A stretch of 64,000 nucleotides of DNA from an uncultured archaeon (GCA_964600735.1 CAZRLL010000003.1:20544-84543); one strand, 5' to 3'. Shown: positions 2,609-54,015, numbered from the stretch's first letter. Notes: generated by a model not told the origin, from the sequence alone. Translations and numbers: made by a program.

Positions 2609-3172
2609 TTACCTTTTCATGATCTTATTATACAACATTATAATGATAAAAATTCCGGTTATAGTTCCTAGACCGATGGCAAACCACCTAGCATATCTTA
2701 GAGATTCAGTTGTTCCTGTGATTTCTACAATTTGATTGGTTAGAGCATATGTAATATTCCAATTCTCGTTAGTATCACCACCTTCGCCATAGTTAAAATA
2801 TATCGAAACATTATATTCGGCAATGTCGTATGATATTTTCGATTTTATAACATCTGTAAAAGTGCTGTTATATTTCAATGGGATGCCTGAATCTCCATAT
2901 AATCGAGATATATTTAGAAGATCCATATCTTGTGATGATGGTTGTATTTTTTCAAATGAAATATTCATCGAGAATAACCTGAGACTACGAATTTCTACGC
3001 TAGAGATGGAACCCGAAAAAGTAAGTGTCTCCCCCTGTTTTATTTTATTAGATGAAATTGAACCTGAAAATCCATTAATCGTATCTCCTGAACTCGGCGT
3101 TGTACTTAATAAGATTATTAAAAATAATATGCCTATTATTAAACTTGAGTTAAATATTTTCGTAGTTATCAA
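2609..3172 (-). CDS. Secreted or membrane-anchored protein, unknown function
   Basis: 187 aa; N-terminal hydrophobic signal-like segment, C-terminal TM followed by KIMKR, several N-x-S/T sequons; TTG start overlaps the stop of the upstream gene (TTGA). Confidence 0.5.
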   Translation of the reverse strand: MITTKIFNSSLIIGILFLIILLSTTPSSGDTINGFSGSISSNKIKQGETLTFSGSISSVEIRSLRLFSMNISFEKIQPSSQDMDLLNISRLYGDSGIPLKYNSTFTDVIKSKISYDIAEYNVSIYFNYGEGGDTNENWNITYALTNQIVEITGTTESLRYARWFAIGLGTITGIFIIIMLYNKIMKR

Positions 3173-3837
3173 CTAAGTACCTCTTGTAACGCAACTCTAA
3201 TTGAATCTTTTTCTCTTTCAAGTCGACTCTCAAAAGTATTGTCTACAAATAACCGATTGTCATGCCGGATCAATTTTATGCCACCCATAGTTATAAGGGC
3301 TTCAGATGAAATAGATATATTGGTTTCTTGGTTGGTTTCTTTATGTATATCTTTTGCAATTTGTGAAAGAGAATCCTTTGTAAAATGAGATTTGTCTTCG
3401 GCTCGTAAATGAAGTTTTAATTGACCACCACCGATGCTTATCCCGCTAGTTTTCACTAGCATTTGCATAAATTTTGAATAATCTTCTGTTTGCGTATATT
3501 TTTGCAATTTGGATTTGGTCTCAAGTTGAATCTCGTTAATTATTTGCTCACGAGTTTCTAAGTAATCCATTTTCAATGCAAGCTTCCTTCTTGAGATTTC
3601 TCTGATTTTTGCATTGATTGCTTGATTGCGAGCGGATCCAATTATGTCTGATTTTGCCATATTTGCTTTTTCTTCAGCAGTGGATAAAATTTCTTCAATT
3701 GAGAGTTTTGAGTTTTGAAGAATTTCATTTGCTTTGTCTTTTGCCGTATTTTCGATCTCAGTTTTGATTCTAGAAAAAGCCAATTGATCATCTGGTCGTT
3801 CATCCAATTTATCCTCAGGCGATGTATTTTCAGTCAA
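3169..3837 (-). CDS. A/V-type ATP synthase subunit E-like protein (orphan copy)
   Basis: 222 aa; long N-terminal charged helix, then ISIGGGQLKL and GGIKLIRHDNRLFVDNTFESRL, which match from memory the conserved C-terminal globular domain of archaeal AtpE. Confidence 0.6.
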   Translation of the reverse strand: MTENTSPEDKLDERPDDQLAFSRIKTEIENTAKDKANEILQNSKLSIEEILSTAEEKANMAKSDIIGSARNQAINAKIREISRRKLALKMDYLETREQIINEIQLETKSKLQKYTQTEDYSKFMQMLVKTSGISIGGGQLKLHLRAEDKSHFTKDSLSQIAKDIHKETNQETNISISSEALITMGGIKLIRHDNRLFVDNTFESRLEREKDSIRVALQEVLS

Positions 3838-4021: not shown

Positions 4022-5203
4022 GTGCAAGTTTCTGAAAGAATTGGAAGAATCGAATACGCAATTAGAGATGTTCAACTATTAGCAAATAAATTAATAGAAA
4101 AGGGTCATGATGTAATTCAATTCAATATTGGTGATCCAATCAAATTTGATTTTGAAGTTCCTGATGTCATGCAAAATGCTTTAATAAAATACAAAAGCGA
4201 TGGGTATTATTCAGAATCAATCGGGGACAAATTTGTAAGAGATAAAATAGCAAATTATGAGAGGAACAAACAAGGCATAGATATTAATTCTAGCGATATA
4301 ATTTACTTTCAGGGAGTTTCGGAGGGGATTTTTTTTACATTTTTTTCATTCTTAAATCCCGGTGATAGAATACTCGTACCTGGGCCGTCTTATCCTGCAT
4401 ATAAAAGTGTGGGAGAGGCTGCAGATGCAGAAGTTGTTGCGTATCGATGTATTGAAGAAGAGGATTGGATACCGGATGTAGATGATATAAGATCTAAACT
4501 TACTAATAAGACAAAAATTGTGGTTCTTATAAATCCAAATAATCCTACTGGAGCTGTTTATTCAGAAAGAATCCTAAGAGAAATCAGGGATTTAGTAGGT
4601 GAAACTGATGCGGTGATTATGAGTGATGAAATTTATGATCAACTCGTATTTGAAGGGAATTATAAGTCTTTTTCATCAATCGCTGCTGATGTTCCAGCAG
4701 TGATTTTTAATGGATTTTCCAAGATATTTTTAGCTCCTGGTTGGAGAGCGGCATACGGGTTTAAACTAGATAATCATGATAAATTAGAAAATGTCTGGGA
4801 GGGAGTTAAAAAATTGTGTAGAATCAGATTATCACCGAATACTCCCATTTCAAAAGCTGCGGTGATGGGACTAACTAAAGATCCTCCCCATTTATTTGAT
4901 GTCAAAAGAAAATTAAAGGAAAGGAGAGATCTTGTTATAAAAAGACTGAATGAAATAGATAGAATAACAACTACAACCCCTAAAGCTGCGTTCTACATTT
5001 TTCCAAAGTTAAATTTAGATGCGACAAAGTGGAAGAATGATAAGGAATTTGTTCTAGAATTCTTAAATGAGAAAAAAACATTACTTGTACATGGGTCTGG
5101 GTTTGGCAGGGAATTTGGTCAGGATCATTTCAGATTAGTTTATCTTGCTCCCCCGCAAATCATCAATACAGGATTACAGAGATTAAAAGAATTTTACATT
5201 TAG
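4022..5203 (+). CDS. Class I/II pyridoxal-phosphate aminotransferase (aspartate/alanine aminotransferase-like)
   Basis: 393 aa, GTG start; NPNNPTGAVY, PLP-lysine context FSKIFLAPGWR. Confidence 0.85.
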   Translation: MQVSERIGRIEYAIRDVQLLANKLIEKGHDVIQFNIGDPIKFDFEVPDVMQNALIKYKSDGYYSESIGDKFVRDKIANYERNKQGIDINSSDIIYFQGVSEGIFFTFFSFLNPGDRILVPGPSYPAYKSVGEAADAEVVAYRCIEEEDWIPDVDDIRSKLTNKTKIVVLINPNNPTGAVYSERILREIRDLVGETDAVIMSDEIYDQLVFEGNYKSFSSIAADVPAVIFNGFSKIFLAPGWRAAYGFKLDNHDKLENVWEGVKKLCRIRLSPNTPISKAAVMGLTKDPPHLFDVKRKLKERRDLVIKRLNEIDRITTTTPKAAFYIFPKLNLDATKWKNDKEFVLEFLNEKKTLLVHGSGFGREFGQDHFRLVYLAPPQIINTGLQRLKEFYI

Positions 5204-5469
5204 AAATTTTGTCTTCATTGACGATACTATAAAGTTAATTTTCGTTGAGTATATTATATTCCTGATAATACAATAAGTAGATCAACATCATCCGTTTCAA
5301 CTACTTTAAATATTTTCTTACTTCATCATGGTGGTGATTAGGGATAATGAGTATCTCAAAATGTTGTTAAACTAGGGATTAGTAGTAGCAAGATCTCCCC
5401 AGGAAAAATAAGAGTCCATGGAGTCCAAATTTGGTCTGACAAAAAAAATAATATTTTTTGATCCTGACC

Positions 5470-6348
5470 TCAGGCACAATAATCATTTAAAAATGATGAA
5501 ATTACTTCTGCTAGTGGTATTTCCTCATATTCCGCCTTATCGTAGACAATACCCTCAAAAATGCTTGTTTCAAGACTTACTACATTTGAAATAGGAATTT
5601 TCAAGTTAGTAAGTGTTAAAAAATCACCGGATGAAATAAACTTGTTTGCTTCGCCCCTTAATAATAGGTCTTTTTTATTCATTAATACAAGGATCGGGAT
5701 GGTTTGATCTCTGTATTGAATAACTCTTTCAAATGATTTTGCAACTTCAAGTAAATCATTTGAAGTTGCATCTATTATGAAAAAAATTGCATTTGATTGT
5801 TGGATAGCTGCCTCCCAAAGTTCCCAAAAATCTTGTTGGCCGCCCATATCTACTGTTTTTATTGTTGATTTACCTAATTTGATATGTTTTGTGGATTTTC
5901 CCATTGTTGGCACAGATGGGATGATAACAGAATCTCGTTCTGGAATAAGGGTTTCTAAATAACGAACAAGTGAGGTTTTTCCTGCTCTAGAGGGCCCAGT
6001 AATTGTTATTATTAAATCTCGATTATGAAGTTTAGAAAAGAGTGATTTTCTTATTTTTTTGAACAAGGACATTTTTTTTGAGTTGCGGATATAAAATGGT
6101 AACGGTTGAGTCTGGAGGTGTTCTGGTATATCTTCGGAGGATAATGCGATAGTATCCCCGAGATATTCTCCCTTTTCATCAAAATAAATAATACGTGTAT
6201 GATCCGAATGTACAATAGAATAGGCACCAATCCCCATATCAGTTGATTTTGATCTCACTCTAATTTCATCAATACTTAACATAATAGAATCAAAGCGACT
6301 ACATATATCACACTCTAATGTTCTGATTGTAATTACTGAATCCTGCAT
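5470..6348 (-). CDS. Arf-like small GTPase with extra N-terminal Cys2-His2 domain (paralog A)
   Basis: 292 aa; G1 GPSRAGKTS, switch I PTMG, G3 DMGGQQDFW, G4 NKKD; residues 1-95 carry C-x2-C ... H-x2-H; basic amphipathic stretch MSLFKKIRKSLFSKL just before the P-loop. Confidence 0.75.
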   Translation of the reverse strand: MQDSVITIRTLECDICSRFDSIMLSIDEIRVRSKSTDMGIGAYSIVHSDHTRIIYFDEKGEYLGDTIALSSEDIPEHLQTQPLPFYIRNSKKMSLFKKIRKSLFSKLHNRDLIITITGPSRAGKTSLVRYLETLIPERDSVIIPSVPTMGKSTKHIKLGKSTIKTVDMGGQQDFWELWEAAIQQSNAIFFIIDATSNDLLEVAKSFERVIQYRDQTIPILVLMNKKDLLLRGEANKFISSGDFLTLTNLKIPISNVVSLETSIFEGIVYDKAEYEEIPLAEVISSFLNDYCA

Positions 6349-6626
6349 TATTATTTACTTGTAATTTCGATTTTTATACCCCTCATATTAAAATAATTTT
6401 CATCATCAAATTATTCAGGTTAATTTTGATACAATGCAAATTAATGAAAATCAACTGTCACTCATCATTAATTAACCACTGTCAATTTTTTGTAATAACC
6501 TTAGATTATAAGAAATTTTAATTTTGAATAATTTTGAGATTCAATTATAATCCAAACGATAAACAAAAAACTATGTCATAACATTGGTAAATAAGCAATT
6601 GGTGTCAAGCCATAACTAATGCAAAA

Positions 6627-6773
6627 AGCGGAGTAGCCCAGCCCGGTCAACGGCGACAGACTCAAGATATTCTTCAAATATGAAGAAAATTAGGCATCTG
6701 CTCCTTTAGAGGTTCGTGGGTTCAAAATATTATTCTGAAGTGGATTAATTTGAGAGTCCCACCTCCGCTACCA
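6627..6773 (+). tRNA. tRNA-Leu(CAA) with two introns (37/38 and T-loop 59/60)
   Basis: Removing 6667-6695 and 6727-6756 restores a class II cloverleaf: acceptor AGCGGAG/CTCCGCT, 3-bp D stem, anticodon loop CTCAAG|A, long variable arm, GTGGG-TTCAAA|T-CCCAC, A73 and an encoded CCA. Confidence 0.8.
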
Positions 6774-20859: not shown

Positions 20860-20920
20860 AGCTGATTATTTTTAATTTAAAATAAAAACCAATGATTTGA
20901 AATCAATTATTTTGTAAAAG

Positions 20921-21007
20921 CGAGTATGGTGGGATTCGAACCCACGACCCCTGGCTTACTCCATGAAATTTAGGAGGCCAGTGCTCTTCCAGCTGAGCTA
21001 CATACTC
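20921..21007 (-). tRNA. tRNA-Arg(CCT) with 14-nt canonical intron
   Basis: Reverse complement folds as GAGTATG-TA-GCTC..GAGC-A-CTGGC-CTCCTA[aatttcatggagta]A-GCCAG-GGGTC-GTGGG-TTCGAAT-CCCAC-CATACTC-G; intron 20957-20970; CTCC/GGAG central helix with two 3-nt bulges. Confidence 0.88.
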
Positions 21008-24089: not shown

Positions 24090-27000
24090 TACGAAACGCC
24101 TTGAGCGTAAGTGATCGTGGGCTAAACATTTCGCCGGAGCTCAACGCGCACACCCCGATTCTTTCTAACGGATCTTCTTTCCGTGCTCTCGTCCAGAATA
24201 GAACTTGGTAATCGTCACCGATCCCCAAGAGATAGGAGATTTTATTAATTAAATTAATTTATCTCTAATCTGCTATTCCAGAATGGGTTACTCTTTTTAA
24301 GGACAGCTTCGAGCTTAGATGCATTCAGCTCTTATCTGTAATGGCGTAGCTACCGGGCGATACCTTGTCAGATAACCCGTACACCAGAGGCCACATCAGC
24401 TCGTTCCTCTCGTACTGAAGCCAATTTACTTGCAATAACCCAACAGCCCAGTTAGATAGAAACCAACCTGTCTCACAACGGTCTGAACCCAGCTCACGTT
24501 CCCTATTAACGGGCGAACAACCCTACTCTAGGTGTCTTATGCAACACCAAGCGAGGAAGAGCCGACATCGAGGAAGCAAGCCGCGGGGTCAATATGTCCC
24601 ATTCGAGTCGCAACTCGAAGTGGAATAATCACCGTCATTGAATAATCATAATGCTGGGTATTCAACTTATGCGTTTACATCTGTCGGGTACTTCTCTTCT
24701 CGGGTCAATTGTTTAAGAGAACCTTACCTTGGTCCAACCATCAGCAAGATCATCGAATTTTTTCAAATCCTACTGCTGTGTGAATGTTAGGTTAGATATT
24801 CCTCTTCCCAAAATGACTTTGGAGAAGTTAAGTTATACCCGAAGTGATGTGTATATTACACATAAGCTTTACTACGTTTTTTTGGTGGAAAAGATCTTAC
24901 TAGAAGATCCTCGACAACAAAACAGATTTTAATGAAAAGTTAGAGGTAAAATGACTAAACCACTTATCATGTAAAAAATTACATGAATGTGTGAACTTTA
25001 GCCCGCGACAACTCTGTTACCCCTGAGGTAACTTTTCTGCCACCACCCACGCCAACTAAAAGCAATTGGATGGATCGCTAGGCCCTAGTTTCCTAACAGC
25101 GAGCATTATTGGAGTGCTCACAGTAAAGCCGACTTATGCCCTTGCACTCTACGGAGGATTTCTGTCCCTCCTGAGTCGACCTTTGGGCGCCTCTGTTTCC
25201 TTATCGGAGGCGTGCCGCCCCAGCCAAACTGTCCACCACCAGGTGTCCCCGTCGCAACGGGTGAGCCTAACCAATCTTCGAAGTTAGTGTTCCATTGTTG
25301 ACTCCACAGTACCCGGGGATACTGCTTCAAAGTCTCCTAACTACGCTCTGTACGAAAATCGAATAAACAACTGGAAGCTACAGTAAAGCTCTCAGGGTCT
25401 TCTCTTCCCAACTGGGCAATCCGGTCTGTTCGCCGGATCGCAGGTTCACTGGATTCTAGGCAGGGACAGTGGCAACCTCGTTGGTCCCTTCATGGACGTC
25501 GGTAATTATCCGACAAGGCATTTGCCTACCTTAAGAGAGTCATGGTTACTCCCGCTGTTAACCAGAGCTTAGCCCGGTTGAACCCGGATTTGACTTACTG
25601 GCACGGAGCAGGATTCACAAACTATACAAAGCTTTTCAGCGTAGCAGTTTGCTATGTTTTTGTTAAACAGTCGGGTTGCCTATGTTAGTGACACCTTCGC
25701 ACGCGTTAACATGTAAAGGCAGCGATTATCCCTAAGTTACTCGCCTAATTTGCCGAATTCCCTTGCCTACATTACTCCAAAAGATCTTAGCGTTCTACGC
25801 CTAAGGACACCCGTGTCGGTTTAGGTACGGACGCGCAGTATTAGAAGAAATCATTTTCATGGGCTTTTGGAAATCAACTTTACCTACCACTATTGGTGGG
25901 CCATTCGTAGTTTTATCCGGTTCTCAGCGCAACGCTACTCCCCGGATTTATGTACTTAGTCTGGACGACGATCCAGAAAAGCCTATCCGCAAGCGTCTGA
26001 TTCCTTCCTATTGTTGCCAACTTTCATGCGCGGTACGGGAATATGAACCCGTTTCCCTTTCGTCATAATCATATTAAGACTAGACTTAGGACCGACTTAC
26101 CCTGGGCCGATTGACGTTGCCCAGGAACCCTTGCCTTTTCGATCTATACGGTTCTCACGTATACTTCTGCCTACTACTACCAGGATCTGCACATCAGCAA
26201 GGTCCACAGGTTATCACCAACCTGCTTCACCCCTAACTGATCGAAAGTCTACCGGATCATACCTTGCGGTATGCCTTTGGGTATCGGGAGTCAGTTTTAG
26301 TCCCGTCCATTTTCAGGGCCGTAACGCTCGATGGTTAAACTAGTACGTACTTTTTAATGGATAGCTGTTTCTAAGCTTACCATGCCATTGTCTTAGCGAT
26401 ACGACGCCCTTCATTTTTACACTTAACTGACATTTAGGGCCCTTAACCCAAATCTAGCTTATTCGCTTCGCGGCGATCACCCTTACGGCGACCCGCCCGA
26501 CTGCAGGGGTCTACATAGATCTGACATTCGGAGTTAGATGATGTGGTGAGGATTTCACTCCCCATTCCGACATTGTCTGTACTCTACCTTCAGATCCTAT
26601 TCGCCCAACGCTGGACTGCGGCTCCACTTTGACTTTAATGTGCTATCAGGAGACTCGATTAGCCTTTGACTCCTAAACGCAGCTCAGAGGATCGAGTTGC
26701 ATATCAGAACCCCTTCGGTCCTCCACCGCGGTTTCCCGCGGCTTCAACCTGGCCACGCTTAGATCGTCTCCTTTCGCATCTTATCCGAGTGATTTCACGC
26801 CCTTTCAGACGTCGTCCCTCACATGCAAGCATGTTGCGGACTGATTGGTTTCCCTAAGACTTAGATATCACCTTGGTCTCACCACTCAGATAAACTCCCT
26901 GGCCAGTGTTTCAAGACTGACGTAATGACGCCGGTAAACTGAATTCCCGTTCGATCGTCACCAATCTTAGGTTCATTCAGTCTCTTTCCTTTCACGCCAT

Positions 27001-27572
27001 TACACACTTTAAGCACATAATTTCAAGCTCTTTTCACTGCGTTTTACCGCTACTTTTCACCTTTTACTCACGTTACTAGTTCTCTATCGGTCTGAGATTA
27101 ATATTTAGGTTTTCGAATTAGTTCTCGAAGTTTGGACGCAATTCCCAATGCGCCCTAGTCTGGGTTACAAAACTCATAGCAGCAGACTCACACCTACGGG
27201 GCTATCACCCTCTATGGCCCCCTTTTCCAAAGGAGTTCGGTTTATGTCTGGTAAGCGTTGGTTTTGACCCACAACACCACATCTATAATTTTTTTCAAAA
27301 TAATATTCGGTTTGACCTGTTTCCTGTTTACTCGCCGTTACTAAGGAAATCGCGATTGCTTTCTTTTCCTCCACCTACTTGAATGCTTTCGTTCGGTGGG
27401 TTCCCTTCCTCTAATGAGGATCTATATGCTTCTTGGACATATAGAAGAATCTTATTCGGGCATCTTAGGATCGAAGGCTGCCTGCGCCTACCCTAAGCTT
27501 ATCGCAGCTTGCCACGCCCTTCATCGGTTTCTCAGCCAAGGTATCCATTATGTGCTGTTTGGCAGAATCGTA
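24090..27572 (-). rRNA. rrl: 23S (LSU) rRNA, ends approximate (within about 20 nt), interrupted by a ~397-nt insertion
   Basis: Minus strand contains universal LSU blocks: GGATACCTTGGC...GATGAAGGGCGTGGCAAGCTGCGATAAGC near the 5' end, GACTGTTTAACAAAAACATAG, GGGGTAACAGAG, CCTCGATGTCGGCTC, GTTCAGACCGTTGTGAGACAGGTTGG, AGTACGAGAGGAAC, GCTGAATGCATCTAAGC. Confidence 0.95.
24595..24991 (-). other. Intervening sequence (probable intron) in the 23S rRNA helix-89 loop, no ORF
   Basis: The conserved loop ...GCGGGC-TAAAG-TTCA / TATTGAC-CCCGCGG... is split by 397 nt of AT-rich non-rRNA sequence; junction ambiguous by 2 nt because CA is repeated. Confidence 0.7.
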
Positions 27573-51382: not shown

Positions 51383-52267
51383 ATGATGGCATATAACCAA
51401 ATTGGAGAAGAAGAAATTCTTGTAATTAGAACATTAGAATGCGATTTATGCATGAGATTTGACTCGATAATGATTACCCGGGAAGAAATTGAAAAACGGG
51501 TGGAATCAAATTCATTGCAAATTGGTAGTCATCTTATTTCGCATCGGGATCATCTTCGGATTGTTTATTTCGATCGATTTGGTATTTACTTAGGAGATAC
51601 GATATCACTAAATACTGGGAATAATAAATTAGAGAATTTCGATAGGGAATTACAAATATTTCCCAAATATGAACAGAGGTTAATTAAAAGAATAAGAAAT
51701 AAACTGCTCAAGAAATTTCTATTGACCAAGCAAAGTATTTGTATTGTTGGTCCTTCATTTGCTGGAAAAACTTCTCTTACAATGTACCTTGAAACTGGAA
51801 TCCCTGAAAGGTATAGCAAAAGAATCAGCCATTCTCCAACGTTAGGGAAATCGGTTCGTAGATTTAGACTAGGTAAGTCTAAATTAACTGTATTTGATAT
51901 GGGGGGACAAAGAGATTTTTGGGCAGGATGGGGGGACAGTATTCAATATTCAGAAAAATTAATTTTTGTTATTGATGGAACTGCCAATAACAACAAAGAA
52001 GTAATTGATTCATTAAATTTAGTATTAAAAGAGAGGGGGGCTAGTAAACCAGTACTCGTGTTGAATAATAAAATGGATTTATTTCTCGATGGATATTCCA
52101 CTGAATTTTCAGCTTCGAGTGATTTTATCTCACAATTAGATGCTGTTGATCCAAAATATATTTGGATGCTCGAAGTTTCCGTATTTAACGGAATCTGTTA
52201 CAATTATGGGGGTAAGAAAGAAGAAACTACACTTGCTGATGTAATTTCTGATTTTTTAGAATTTTAA
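51383..52267 (+). CDS. Arf-like small GTPase with extra N-terminal Cys2-His2 domain (paralog B)
   Basis: 294 aa; GPSFAGKTS, PTLG, DMGGQRDFW, NNKMD; the N-terminal ~95 aa is co-linear with paralog A (IRTLECDLCMRFDSIM ... HRDHLRIVYFD..G.YLGDTI). Confidence 0.75.
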   Translation: MMAYNQIGEEEILVIRTLECDLCMRFDSIMITREEIEKRVESNSLQIGSHLISHRDHLRIVYFDRFGIYLGDTISLNTGNNKLENFDRELQIFPKYEQRLIKRIRNKLLKKFLLTKQSICIVGPSFAGKTSLTMYLETGIPERYSKRISHSPTLGKSVRRFRLGKSKLTVFDMGGQRDFWAGWGDSIQYSEKLIFVIDGTANNNKEVIDSLNLVLKERGASKPVLVLNNKMDLFLDGYSTEFSASSDFISQLDAVDPKYIWMLEVSVFNGICYNYGGKKEETTLADVISDFLEF

Positions 52268-52646: not shown

Positions 52647-53048
52647 TTGATAGTCAATATATACTTGAAGCCAATAATTGTTCTTATGACTTTACCAAAA
52701 TTGCAGTATGTTCAATTTGTAGAAGTTCATGGTGAGATGGCAGAGGTTTACCAACAATTTCTTAGAAAATTAATCTCGGCTTACAAATCAATGAATTTCA
52801 GCAAAAAATGGGTTGTTTATGAAAATTCGTTTTGTATCGTTGAAGATAGTAGAGAATTTATTTTTATACGTGAGTTAGATGCATGGTCTGACTTAGATGG
52901 TATTTCAAAAGAGGATCCATTAACAAAAATCATGGCAGATGTATATGGTGAAAGTGATGCTTTACAGTGGATGGAAATAGTTCGCCGAGCAGTGAAGAAA
53001 ATATCTACATGTGTATATTCAAAAATACCAGAGCTCTCTCTAGATTAA
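52647..53048 (+). CDS. Hypothetical protein (likely true start ATG 52686)
   Basis: 133-aa ORF (120 aa from ATG 52686); small alpha/beta-looking protein, no motif recognised. Confidence 0.4.
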   Translation: MIVNIYLKPIIVLMTLPKLQYVQFVEVHGEMAEVYQQFLRKLISAYKSMNFSKKWVVYENSFCIVEDSREFIFIRELDAWSDLDGISKEDPLTKIMADVYGESDALQWMEIVRRAVKKISTCVYSKIPELSLD

Positions 53049-53214: not shown

Positions 53215-54015
53215 GTGTTAAAAGAGGCATCGTTGATTTCTAGTTCAGGAATACCAATTTGGGTTCGATCAACTGGTCCTTCAATCGTAGATGGGATTCT
53301 TGCAGGGGCTATGCTGGGCGCATTGTCAACATTTTCATCAGAAGTAACAGGTCAACTTATACGAACTGTTGAAATGAGCGATGGTTTTAAGTTACACATT
53401 CGACCATTTGGAGATGGCGATATAAATTTAGCAATTGTCGGTGATGAGCAGATTCTAAGTGACCCTGAACTATTGAAAATTATTGATACACTCGATGATC
53501 ATATCAATTTAATGCTTAGTGATGATTCGATTGTTGATTTGCATGATCACCAAACTACATCAATATATTTAGAAAAATCAATTACACTACTCGATGGATG
53601 GTTTGGATCAAAAATATTTATCCAGGCTACTATTCAAAAAGCAAGAGATGAAGAAATTGTTGAAATTTCAAGTCAAATAGCTATCATGGCATCACGTTTT
53701 CTTCAGGAAAATATTGCTGTAATGATTCTGGACGCATCTTTGGAAGCCTTGTACACATCAACCTCAAAAAATATTGGAGAAAGCCGATTAGAATCATTGC
53801 AAAGGCATTTTAAGGGTTGGATAAGAGTTTCATCGCATGTAGATCAGCTACTACCTGAAATTATCTTCTTTAATGACTTTTGTGTAGGAATCAAAGCTTT
53901 GAAACGTTTTTATGTGATATGCGCGATTGAATGGACTGGATCGCTTGGGGGGGCTGAAATTACAAGCAAGGTTAGATCATGGTTGTCAATATTAAATCGA
54001 AGGTTAGGTCCGTAA
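53215..54015 (+). CDS. Two-lobed longin/roadblock-like protein (candidate small-GTPase regulator)
   Basis: 266 aa, GTG start; N-lobe SSSGIPIWVRS..ILAGAMLGALSTFSSEV..GFKLHIRPFGDGDINLAIVGDE; second similar hydrophobic pattern from about residue 150 (IAVMILDASLEALYTS...). Confidence 0.4.
   Translation: MLKEASLISSSGIPIWVRSTGPSIVDGILAGAMLGALSTFSSEVTGQLIRTVEMSDGFKLHIRPFGDGDINLAIVGDEQILSDPELLKIIDTLDDHINLMLSDDSIVDLHDHQTTSIYLEKSITLLDGWFGSKIFIQATIQKARDEEIVEISSQIAIMASRFLQENIAVMILDASLEALYTSTSKNIGESRLESLQRHFKGWIRVSSHVDQLLPEIIFFNDFCVGIKALKRFYVICAIEWTGSLGGAEITSKVRSWLSILNRRLGP

What the first reader, a model, noticed from the sequence alone, without database searches (positions are those of the whole stretch)
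5470..6348. Second copy of the same unusual GTPase architecture 45 kb away
ORF 5470-6348 is co-linear with 51383-52267 over its full length. By eye roughly half of the N-domain positions are identical (IRTLECDxCxRFDSIM, HxDHxRIxYFDxxGxYLGDTI), and Cys13/Cys16/His47/His50 are conserved. It has the same basic amphipathic linker (MSLFKKIRKSLFSKL) and the same Arf-like G motifs. Two diverged paralogs that keep the N-domain ligands argue that the domain is functional and not a mis-called start. This copy has no longin/roadblock-like neighbour: it lies between an aminotransferase gene and tRNA-Leu.
Basis: seen in the sequence. Interest (0 to 1): 0.6.

Follow-up and report, generated by a model that had tools for sequence, protein, structure and literature searches.

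The report
Arf-like GTPase with zinc N-domain
This Heimdall-group (Asgard) archaeal gene encodes an Arf-type molecular switch carrying a small, undescribed four-ligand (probably zinc) domain ahead of its membrane-binding helix, and the same small domain also occurs alone in virus-like gene arrays.

Summary
ORF 5470-6348(-) (292 aa) and ORF 51383-52267(+) (294 aa) are co-linear paralogues: 45% identity overall and 54% in the N-domain.

The N-domain is translated and functional.
- About 40 relatives keep it in frame.
- Its dN is at or below that of the G domain.
- The internal Met93 is not conserved.
- A TATA-like box lies 21-23 nt upstream of the N-domain ATG in orthologues.

Cys13, Cys16, His47 and His50 are the only universally conserved positions in 40 diverse family members. 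The predicted fold is beta-beta-alpha-beta-beta-beta (pLDDT 86). It matches nothing in Pfam, NCBIfam, PDB or BFVD.

The family is very rare: 32 hits among 1.84 billion representative proteins. The GTPase fusions are confined to three families of one Heimdallarchaeia order and form clades A (this gene, slow-evolving), B and C.

New here: the domain also exists alone. Four such genes lie in dense, co-directional runs of genes without known relatives that look like viruses or mobile elements. Some carry a basic amphipathic tail or a transmembrane anchor in place of the GTPase.

Best model: the Arf-type helix switch delivers the metal domain, a partner-binding head, to the membrane. The main rival is regulation of the protein's own G domain. 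This is a new variant of a known kind.

The parts
5470..6348 (-). Paralogue A: 292-aa protein made of N-domain, linker, amphipathic helix and Arf-like G domain
   Evidence: ORF. 34 homologues of about 290 aa. Clade A of the family tree, 31 rows, support 98/97.
6145..6348 (-). N-domain, residues 1-68: predicted beta(5-9)-beta(21-25)-alpha(26-34)-beta(40-46)-beta(51-57)-beta(62-68). Putative Cys2His2 metal site at C13, C16, H47, H50.
   Evidence: AlphaFold model of the domain alone: pLDDT 85.9, pTM 0.71. The ligands are the only universally conserved columns. No Pfam, NCBIfam, PDB or BFVD match.
6073..6144 (-). Linker, residues 69-92: acidic then basic, with a conserved Pro84, predicted disordered
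   Evidence: pLDDT 53-55. It is the fastest-evolving segment: dN 0.18-1.27.
6019..6072 (-). Basic amphipathic helix, residues 93-110 (MSLFKKIRKSLFSKLHNR), the counterpart of the Arf N-terminal helix but internal here
   Evidence: Helix 96-109 in the model. The profile aligns residues 94 onward to residues 5 onward of Arl8A 4ILE. Hydrophobic residues recur with 3-4 spacing; hydrophobic moment is moderate.
5473..6018 (-). Arf-family G domain, residues 111-292. P-loop 5971-5997 (GPSRAGKTS), G3 5836-5850 (DMGGQ, Gln171), G4 5668-5679 (NKKD).
   Evidence: PF00025 58.6 bits. Best PDB sequence hits are Arl8A and GerdArfR1 8OUN. Foldseek top hits are all Arf/Arl/Sar1/ArfR.
6371..6378 (-). TATA-like box TATAAAAA, 22 nt upstream of the ATG at 6348
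   Evidence: Read from sequence. A comparable box sits at the same distance in orthologues L012, L001, L002 and in clade C loci L007 and L008.
5441..5448 (-). Oligo-T run about 22 nt after the stop codon, a possible archaeal terminator
   Evidence: Read from sequence. That it terminates transcription is inference only.
51383..52267 (+). Paralogue B: 294 aa, same architecture, faster-evolving clade
   Evidence: Clade B, 7 rows, support 100/97.
6628..6770 (+). Neighbouring tRNA-Leu(CAA) with two putative introns (context only, not part of the protein)

Best explanation
The gene encodes a real two-module protein.

Shown:
- It is intact, conserved and starts at the ATG at 6348.
- Residues 1-68 form an autonomous small beta-rich domain. 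Its only universally conserved positions are C13, C16, H47 and H50.
- Residues 111-292 are an Arf-family G domain with a complete catalytic set, including Gln171.
- Between them lie a fast-evolving linker and a basic amphipathic helix that aligns with the Arf N-terminal helix.
- This gene is the slow-evolving paralogue A of gene B at 51383. The duplication predates the split of several genera of the family.

Inferred:
1. The four ligands hold one structural metal ion, probably Zn2+. It would clamp the beta1-beta2 loop to the beta3-beta4 hairpin.
2. As in Arf and ArfR proteins, GTP binding releases the amphipathic helix onto a membrane.
3. Because the metal domain hangs on the N-terminal end of that helix by a flexible tether of about 25 residues, the switch places it at the membrane surface. 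There it acts as a built-in partner-binding head, that is, an output or adaptor module.
4. A and B share this head (54% identity, more than their G domains) but differ in their G-domain surfaces, so they probably answer to different regulators.
5. Free-standing copies of the domain carry a basic amphipathic tail or a transmembrane anchor in place of the GTPase. They would do the same job without GTP control.
For: Translation and selection:
- Homologues keep the domain in frame.
- N-domain dN is at or below G-domain dN in 6 of 8 pairs, and the linker is fastest.
- Met93 is not conserved.
- The TATA-like box is conserved 21-23 nt upstream of the ATG.

Metal site:
- C13 40/40, C16 40/40, H47 39/40 and H50 40/40 across fusions, solo, membrane-anchored and distant forms. 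No other column is universal.

Autonomy of the fold:
- Confident model of the domain alone, pLDDT 85.9.
- Solo ORFs of 60-160 aa exist.

Arf-type switch:
- Pfam, PDB sequence and fold matches.
- The helix aligns to the Arl8A N-terminal helix.
- The nearest paralogue in the genome that lacks the N-domain is its best Arf hit: 31% identity, 118 bits.
- The published mechanism of the helix switch in Asgard ArfR comes from bioRxiv 10.1101/2024.02.28.582541.

Membrane link of the N-domain:
- P0037 has a tail with hydrophobic moment 0.70 and charge +5.
- P0035 ends in RKRGKIITFFTQRFSTKR.
- P0057 and P0062-P0065 have N-terminal hydrophobic 19-mers with Kyte-Doolittle means of 2.1-3.6.

Shared head:
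- The N-domain is more conserved than the G domain between A and B (54% against 46%) and between B orthologues (66% against 43%).
Against: - No metal, nucleotide, membrane or partner has been measured.
- The relative placement of the two domains is uncertain (full-length pTM 0.66), so a cis contact cannot be excluded.
- The hydrophobic moment of the internal helix is only moderate, about 0.4-0.7.
- The Arf-specific Leu-Asp in G1 is missing (GPSRAGKT).
- Several solo proteins (P0038, P0043, P0049) have no obvious membrane element.
- No candidate partner was identified, and the gene neighbourhood of A is not conserved beyond the closest relatives.
Confidence: 0.5

Rival explanations
1. The N-domain regulates its own G domain. 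It could be an intramolecular GTPase-activating module that supplies an arginine finger (invariant R52 two residues after H50, or R9). Or it could be an autoinhibitory cap over the helix pocket or the switch regions. The N-terminal region of metazoan TRIM23/ARD1 does something similar: it activates GTP hydrolysis by its own Arf domain (my own knowledge, not checked here).
For: R9, R32 and R52 are invariant in 21 fusion proteins. The motif HxxHxR recalls the CxxCxxxxR of ArfGAP zinc fingers (my recollection, a lead only). The N-domain is acidic (net about -5, counted from the sequence) and the helix is basic. The G domain was found only in fused form among relatives above about 45% identity. 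Virus-borne solo copies could act in trans as GTPase-activating proteins.
Against: R52 is lost in the membrane-anchored and distant members, which still keep the four ligands. There is no Pfam ArfGap hit and no Foldseek hit to ArfGAP or any GAP fold. Ligand type and spacing differ from ArfGAP: Cys2His2 with a 30-residue gap. Solo forms fused to unrelated C-terminal regions (L028, L029, L064, L065) show that the domain works without an Arf partner in cis.
Confidence: 0.25
2. The N-domain is a dimerisation or oligomerisation module that pairs two GTPase chains (A-A, B-B or A-B), in the way C-terminal roadblock domains pair Rag GTPases.
For: Two paralogues per genome share a well-conserved head. 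In two genomes both genes lie on one contig, in divergent orientation: 45 kb apart here and 9.6 kb apart in G047.
Against: Several genomes show only one copy, although they are incomplete. Solo and membrane-anchored forms are not explained more simply this way. No structural similarity to known dimerisation domains was found.
Confidence: 0.12
3. The N-domain is a nucleic-acid-binding zinc finger that ties the GTPase to RNA or ribosome biogenesis.
For: Neighbours of A here and in L012 are related to translation: L30e/L7Ae, a PIN_6 domain of the type found in Nob1, the Gcd14 tRNA methyltransferase, an Obg-like GTPase and tRNA-Leu.
Against: The domain is net acidic. This synteny is limited to the closest relatives. 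No similarity to known nucleic-acid-binding zinc-ribbon families reached significance.
Confidence: 0.06
4. The start is mis-called. Translation begins at Met93, and the upstream 276 nt are an untranslated leader.
For: An ATG lies just before the amphipathic helix in this one gene.
Against: Met93 is missing in most orthologues. The region is conserved at the protein level, with low dN and invariant ligands. The same domain exists as separate ORFs. The TATA-like box sits just upstream of the first ATG.
Confidence: 0.02

Closest known systems
Asgard Arf-related GTPases: ArfR (Vargova et al., bioRxiv 10.1101/2024.02.28.582541; GerdArfR1 PDB 8OUN/8OUM, HodArfR1 8OUL) and AArf (PMC11914678)
   Same: Heimdallarchaeia origin. 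Arf-type G domain with DxGGQ and NKxD. An amphipathic helix directly before the G domain. PDB profile hits to 8OUN (E 1e-15), 8OUM and 8OUL and fold hits to 8OUM. The AArf paper notes that N-termini are diverse and sometimes form extra domains such as longin.
   Different: The characterised ArfRs are 160-220 aa with the helix at the very N-terminus. Here 92 residues precede the helix: a Cys2His2 domain plus a linker. G1 lacks the Arf Leu-Asp. Neither paper mentions zinc, cysteine or this domain. Placement in the ArfR tree was not tested.
Eukaryotic Arl8 / Arf1 / Sar1
   Same: Best PDB sequence match is Arl8A 4ILE (E 7.9e-16), and the alignment includes its N-terminal helix. The fold matches Arf1, Arl1, Sar1 and Arl8.
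   Different: About 20-23% identity. No myristoylation or acetylation context, because the helix is internal. An extra N-terminal domain is present.
TRIM23 / ARD1 (metazoan zinc-binding RING/B-box region fused to a C-terminal Arf domain)
   Same: An N-terminal metal-binding region on the same chain as an Arf-type G domain. This analogy comes from my own knowledge.
   Different: No homology. TRIM23 has RING, B-box and coiled-coil modules of several hundred residues and E3 ligase activity. The present domain has 68 residues, one Cys2His2 site and a different fold.
Zinc-ribbon / zinc-knuckle modules
   Same: Two pairs of ligands (CxxC and HxxH), each on a loop or hairpin between beta strands.
   Different: No significant Pfam or Foldseek match to any zinc-ribbon family: best weak hits have E above 0.06. 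A helix and about 30 residues separate the two ligand pairs. The second half locally resembles an NHL-repeat blade.

Membership tests
Arf family (Pfam PF00025; Arf/Arl/Sar/ArfR) | Sequence match above the curated threshold, and better than to other small-GTPase families | tested here: met
   A scores 58.6 bits (cut-off 22.3); the next best are Gtr1_RagA 37.5 and Roc 30.7. B scores 49.7 bits. The top PDB profile hits are Arf-family proteins, apart from one engineered G-alpha chain.
Arf family | G3 motif DxGGQ, with Gly at the third position and a catalytic Gln | tested here: met
   D167-M-G-G-Q171. D, G, G and Q are invariant in 21 relatives.
Arf family | Leu-Asp at positions 2-3 of G1 (GLDxAGKT), named as Arf-specific in PMC11914678 | tested here: not met
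   G1 is GPSRAGKTS in A and GPSFAGKTS in B.
Arf family | N-terminal amphipathic helix that packs on the core in the GDP form and is released by the interswitch toggle in the GTP form | tested here: inconclusive
   A basic amphipathic helix lies directly before the G domain and aligns with the Arl8A helix. It is internal, and its nucleotide-dependent movement cannot be tested in silico.
Arf family | Guanine specificity motifs G4 [NT]KxD and G5 SA | tested here: met
   NKKD is invariant at N, K and D. The G5 region E260-T-S262 has an invariant Ser; the Ala is replaced by Ile or Val.
ArfR clade of Vargova et al. | Phylogenetic placement inside the ArfR clade, and not in ArfL, Rag, Rup or RasL | not tested
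   No reference set was available. Indirect evidence only: the closest paralogue in the genome without the N-domain is the genome's best Arf hit.
Structural zinc-binding domain | Four invariant Cys/His ligands in two closely spaced pairs | tested here: met
   C13 40/40, C16 40/40, H47 39/40 and H50 40/40.
Structural zinc-binding domain | Stoichiometric metal binding and tetrahedral geometry | not testable with these tools
Longin / roadblock (including the SRX type) regulators fused to GTPases | Longin or roadblock fold | tested here: not met
   The order of secondary-structure elements resembles the start of a longin domain. However, Foldseek against PDB returned no longin or roadblock structure and nothing below E 0.33. 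No Pfam hit.
ArfGAP zinc finger | Cys4 CxxC-x16-CxxC-x4-R motif and ArfGap fold | tested here: not met
   The ligands are Cys2His2 with 30-residue spacing. No PF01412 hit and no fold hit.
Archaeal virus or mobile element (for the solo homologues' contigs) | Hallmark genes (capsid, terminase, integrase), terminal repeats or CRISPR spacer matches | tested here: inconclusive
   The arrays are dense and co-directional and their genes have almost no family matches. There are a few phage-type hits: PAPS reductase phrog_424, polynucleotide kinase phrog_415, phrog_1392, TGT and TnpB. No capsid or terminase was found. No match in IMG/VR or INPHARED. No spacer-like match was found.

The most novel reading that the evidence does not exclude
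Viruses or other mobile elements of Kariarchaeaceae-type Heimdallarchaeia have repeatedly captured the metal-binding head of a host Arf-like GTPase. They attached it to constitutive membrane anchors, either a basic amphipathic tail or a transmembrane helix. The product would be a GTP-independent mimic or competitor that takes over or blocks a host membrane pathway run by a small GTPase. This would be the first case of viral mimicry of a eukaryote-like small-GTPase system in archaea.
Probability: 0.25. Interest if true: 0.8.

Novelty: new variant of a known kind. Interest (0 to 1): 0.6.

Why it matters
Arf-family switches in Heimdall-group archaea are studied as forerunners of eukaryotic membrane trafficking. 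So far only the minimal form, helix plus G domain, has been characterised.

This gene family shows a different design. The membrane helix is internal and carries a compact metal-binding head that the literature, Pfam, NCBIfam and structure libraries do not know. The domain is small and confidently modelled, and its residues are cleanly conserved, so it is easy to test at the bench. It also gives a concrete handle for finding what an archaeal Arf-like switch recruits or is regulated by.

The free-standing copies in virus-like arrays suggest the pathway is worth targeting from a parasite's point of view. They also supply natural 'G-domain-less' versions for comparison.

Tried and rejected
- **Longin, roadblock or SRX-like fold for the N-domain.** The order of secondary-structure elements suggested it. 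Foldseek against PDB gave nothing below E 0.33 and no such fold.
- **Known domain families.** Pfam and NCBIfam found nothing on the N-domain, its solo relatives or its distant relatives.
- **BFVD viral structures.** No match below E 0.06.
- **NHL repeat.** One NHL-repeat protein (P0060) and one NHL structure match residues 41-64 only. This is a local similarity of the beta-meander, not homology of the whole domain.
- **Link to A/V-ATPase genes.** A lone E-subunit-like gene lies near A here and next to it in L012, and F-like and H-like genes lie next to clade C genes. The other A orthologues have different neighbours, so I treat this as coincidence.
- **Viral status of the solo-gene contigs.** No capsid or terminase was found, and there was no IMG/VR or INPHARED match. 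A 32-nt match to the window's own genome (contig C14) lies in coding sequence, not in a CRISPR array. Matches of about 40 nt to relatives are not in repeat arrays.
- **RNA-seq support for the start codon.** Only DNA runs hold the sequence.
- **dN/dS.** dS is saturated in most pairs, so I used dN comparisons between regions instead.
- **ARAGORN's 'tRNA-Pyl(CUA)' at 20920-21007.** This is an artefact of an intron in a tRNA-Arg(CCT).
- **N-domain-only tree.** With 67 columns it is too poorly resolved to count capture events.

Full report
**1. The observation**

ORF 5470-6348(-) encodes 292 aa, and ORF 51383-52267(+) encodes 294 aa. BLASTP aligns them end to end: 130/292 identical, E 2e-77. In a codon alignment, residues 1-68 are 54% identical, the linker (69-95) 8%, and the helix plus G domain 46%.

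Pfam recognises only the Arf domain: PF00025 at 58.6 bits on residues 101-239 of A and 49.7 bits on B. Nothing is found on residues 1-90. NCBIfam also finds nothing there.

The stated neighbours are correct.
- A class I/II aminotransferase lies at 4022-5203(+).
- A tRNA-Leu(CAA) lies at 6628-6770(+). ARAGORN and Rfam miss it. ARAGORN calls it once about 22 nt after the anticodon and about 28-32 nt in the T-loop are removed in silico.

**2. The organism and the family**

Named homologues come from Candidatus Kariarchaeaceae and Heimdallarchaeota assemblies, for example HeimC2_09180 of LC_2. The window also holds an archaeal 23S rRNA.

The window's genome has exactly two copies of the N-domain. 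It has 36 loci that match the Arf model. Apart from B, the closest relative of A's G domain in the genome is the genome's best Arf hit, a 202-aa protein without the N-domain: 31% identity and 118 bits.

A search with the G domain alone returned only fused proteins of about 290 aa.

A maximum-likelihood tree of 42 full-length proteins gives three supported clades:
- clade A: 31 rows, short branches, support 98/97; it contains this gene;
- clade B: 7 rows, long branches, support 100/97; it contains the gene at 51383;
- clade C: 3 rows, support 100/100;
- plus one long-branched protein from a further family (L026).

In a scan of 400 genomes of the phylum, strong matches occur only in the window's own family (four genera) and in two other families of the same order. 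None occurs in the well-sampled fourth family. In genome G047, A and B lie 9.6 kb apart in divergent orientation. Here they are 45 kb apart, also divergent.

**3. The N-domain is translated and under selection**

- In 21 aligned full-length proteins the invariant positions in the N-domain are R9, T10, C13, C16, D20, E28, R32, H47, H50, R52, I53, Y55, F56, D57, G60, L63, G64, D65 and T66. The linker is variable.
- Met93 of A is replaced by Ile, His, Lys, Leu and other residues in most orthologues.
- N-domain dN is at or below G-domain dN in 6 of 8 pairs: 0.093 against 0.132 for the closest pair, 0.431 against 0.561 for A against B, and 0.308 against 0.568 for B orthologues. The linker is faster than both domains in every pair, mostly 2-5 times the G-domain dN. 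Where dS is not saturated, N-domain dN/dS is 0.08-0.24, with one pair at 0.42.
- A TATA-like box lies 21-23 nt upstream of the first ATG in A (TATAAAAA, 6371-6378) and in orthologues L012, L001 and L002, and in clade C loci L007 and L008. Archaeal TATA boxes are centred about 26-27 nt before the transcript start (established knowledge). This places the start at or just before the ATG, so the 276 nt are not a leader.
- No RNA data exist for this sequence.

**4. Anatomy**

AlphaFold on the 21-sequence alignment gave mean pLDDT 77 and pTM 0.66. It predicts strands at 5-9 and 21-25, a helix at 26-34, and strands at 41-46, 51-56 and 62-68. A low-confidence stretch covers about 70-95, followed by a helix at 96-109 and a standard G domain.

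The N-domain modelled alone reaches pLDDT 85.9 and pTM 0.71, with the same elements. C13 and C16 lie in the beta1-beta2 loop. H47 and H50 lie at the beta3-beta4 turn. I could not inspect coordinates, so the ligand geometry is inferred, not checked.

The full model matches Arf1, Arl1, Arl8, Sar1 and GerdArfR1 (E 4e-9 to 4e-8). A profile search of PDB sequences puts Arl8A (7.9e-16) and GerdArfR1 8OUN (1e-15) near the top. That alignment starts at residue 94 of the query and residue 5 of Arl8A, so the internal helix corresponds to the Arf N-terminal helix.

The N-domain model matches nothing: best E is 0.33 in PDB and 0.064 in BFVD.

**5. The N-domain as a family of its own**

A profile of 20 N-domains, searched against 1.84 billion representative proteins, found 32 proteins at E <= 1e-3 and 20 at E <= 1e-10. 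One of the weakest is an NHL-repeat protein that matches only locally.

Besides the fusions, the hits include:
- free-standing proteins of 60-160 aa;
- one with an extra N-terminal zinc ribbon (P0051, in a Heimdallarchaeota assembly);
- five with an N-terminal hydrophobic anchor.

Weaker relatives in other Asgard lineages carry the same CxxC...HxxH...D-x-x-G pattern, either in front of an unrelated region of about 210 aa or as proteins of 110-130 aa. Pfam finds nothing in any of them.

In an alignment of 40 such sequences the four ligands are the only universally conserved columns: 40/40, 40/40, 39/40 and 40/40. This is the signature of a structural metal site.

**6. Where the solo genes live**

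- P0035 (KKN95700.1, from the Loki's Castle metagenome) lies in a 20-kb stretch with 39 genes. Of these, 38 are on one strand and only one has a precomputed Pfam hit, an AAA ATPase. A PAPS-reductase-like gene is also present.
- P0038 lies in a run of 27 co-directional genes with PAPS reductase, TGT, TnpB and a phage-family hit.
- P0042 lies next to a phage-type polynucleotide kinase.
- P0057 lies in 24 small genes with no family hits.
- P0051 is chromosomal.

The only gene these arrays share with each other is the N-domain gene, and their G+C content (29-33%) is like the window's (34%).

The N-domain of P0035 is 78% identical over 81 aa to a cellular clade A protein. At the DNA level it is 76% identical over 205 nt to the A gene of genome G045, and nothing else in the 20 kb matches the order's genomes beyond about 40-nt chance hits.

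No capsid, terminase, spacer match or database virus was found. 'Virus- or mobile-element-like' is therefore a reading of gene organisation, not a demonstration.

**7. How it most likely works**

Shown: a conserved, translated two-module protein with an intact Arf-type catalytic set and four invariant metal ligands.

Inferred from the Arf and ArfR literature: GTP binding moves the interswitch and releases the amphipathic helix to the membrane.

Inferred from the architecture: the metal domain sits on the free end of that helix by a flexible tether, so it is brought to the membrane when the switch is on. Three observations suggest that it acts there as a partner-binding head.
- It is more conserved than the G domain between paralogues.
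- It folds on its own.
- Relatives replace the helix-plus-GTPase by a constitutive anchor.

The main rival is that it acts on its own G domain, as a GTPase-activating or autoinhibitory module. The invariant arginines next to the second ligand pair fit that idea. However, R52 is lost in members that keep the ligands, and no GAP-like fold was detected.

**8. Comparison with what is known**

The G domain belongs with the Arf family by Pfam, PDB sequence and fold. It keeps DxGGQ and NKxD but lacks the Arf Leu-Asp in G1. Its place relative to the published ArfR clade was not tested.

The two papers on Asgard Arf-like proteins do not mention zinc, cysteines or this domain. One of them notes that N-termini are diverse and can be extra domains such as longin. 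A full-text search for the LC_2 locus tag found nothing.

An earlier follow-up in this scan, on paralogue B, reached the same basic reading. I re-derived it independently for A. New here are the clade structure, the promoter evidence, the rarity and breadth of the domain family, and the solo copies in mobile-element-like arrays.

**9. Verdict**

- The feature is a new variant of a known kind: an Arf-like switch with an undescribed Cys2His2 head.
- Interest is moderate to high because the domain is new, small and testable, and because its capture by virus-like elements hints at a host-parasite conflict over an archaeal small-GTPase pathway.

Noticed in passing
window 6628-6770 (+): tRNA-Leu(CAA) that ARAGORN and Rfam miss. 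ARAGORN calls it only after two inserts are removed in silico, one after the anticodon and one in the T-loop.
   Followed up: yes
window 20920-21007 (-): ARAGORN labels this tRNA 'Pyl (CUA)'. The sequence reads ...GGCCTCCTAA[insert]..., which fits tRNA-Arg(CCT) with a short intron after position 37. The Pyl call is therefore an artefact.
   Followed up: partly
window 24092-27569 (-): The archaeal 23S rRNA spans 3478 nt against a 2987-position model, so it carries about 0.4-0.5 kb of inserted sequence.
   Followed up: no
window 3169-3837 (-) and L012 5333-6001: A lone gene resembling the A/V-ATPase E subunit (PF01991) lies near paralogue A here, with the aminotransferase gene between them, and immediately downstream of the orthologue in L012. 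It is followed by a small ORF with no family hit. No other ATPase subunit gene lies nearby. Clade C genes (L007, L008) lie next to genes that look like subunits F and H.
   Followed up: partly
L005 248-2941 (Kariarchaeota FT_008): Homologues of the window genes 53215-54015 and 52647-53048 lie about 1 kb upstream of the clade B GTPase, and G6PDH lies downstream.
   Followed up: partly
L028 1489-2376, L029 823-1713, L064 315-1172, L065 422-1177: Proteins of 250-296 aa in other Asgard lineages, and one in the window's own family, have an N-domain-like CxxC...HxxH start followed by about 170-220 aa with no Pfam match. Two of them lie next to what looks like a glycyl-tRNA synthetase gene, judged by eye from the sequence.
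   Followed up: partly
L031 60-917 and 1408-2016 (own genome, contig C287): The genome's best Arf-family gene (202 aa) lies downstream of a 285-aa ORF on the same strand. The C-terminal half of that ORF looks roadblock- or longin-like by eye. Not tested.
   Followed up: no
L016 1-4300: The virus-like array that carries solo N-domain gene P0038 also encodes PAPS reductase, a TnpB (OrfB_IS605) protein and a tRNA-guanine transglycosylase. This combination is reminiscent of the 7-deazaguanine DNA-modification modules of viruses.
   Followed up: no
own genome, contigs C165:174-659 and C205:4110-4595: Two small-GTPase loci that match the Arf model contain a single in-frame stop, one TAG and one TGA. 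They may be pseudogenes or sequencing errors.
   Followed up: no
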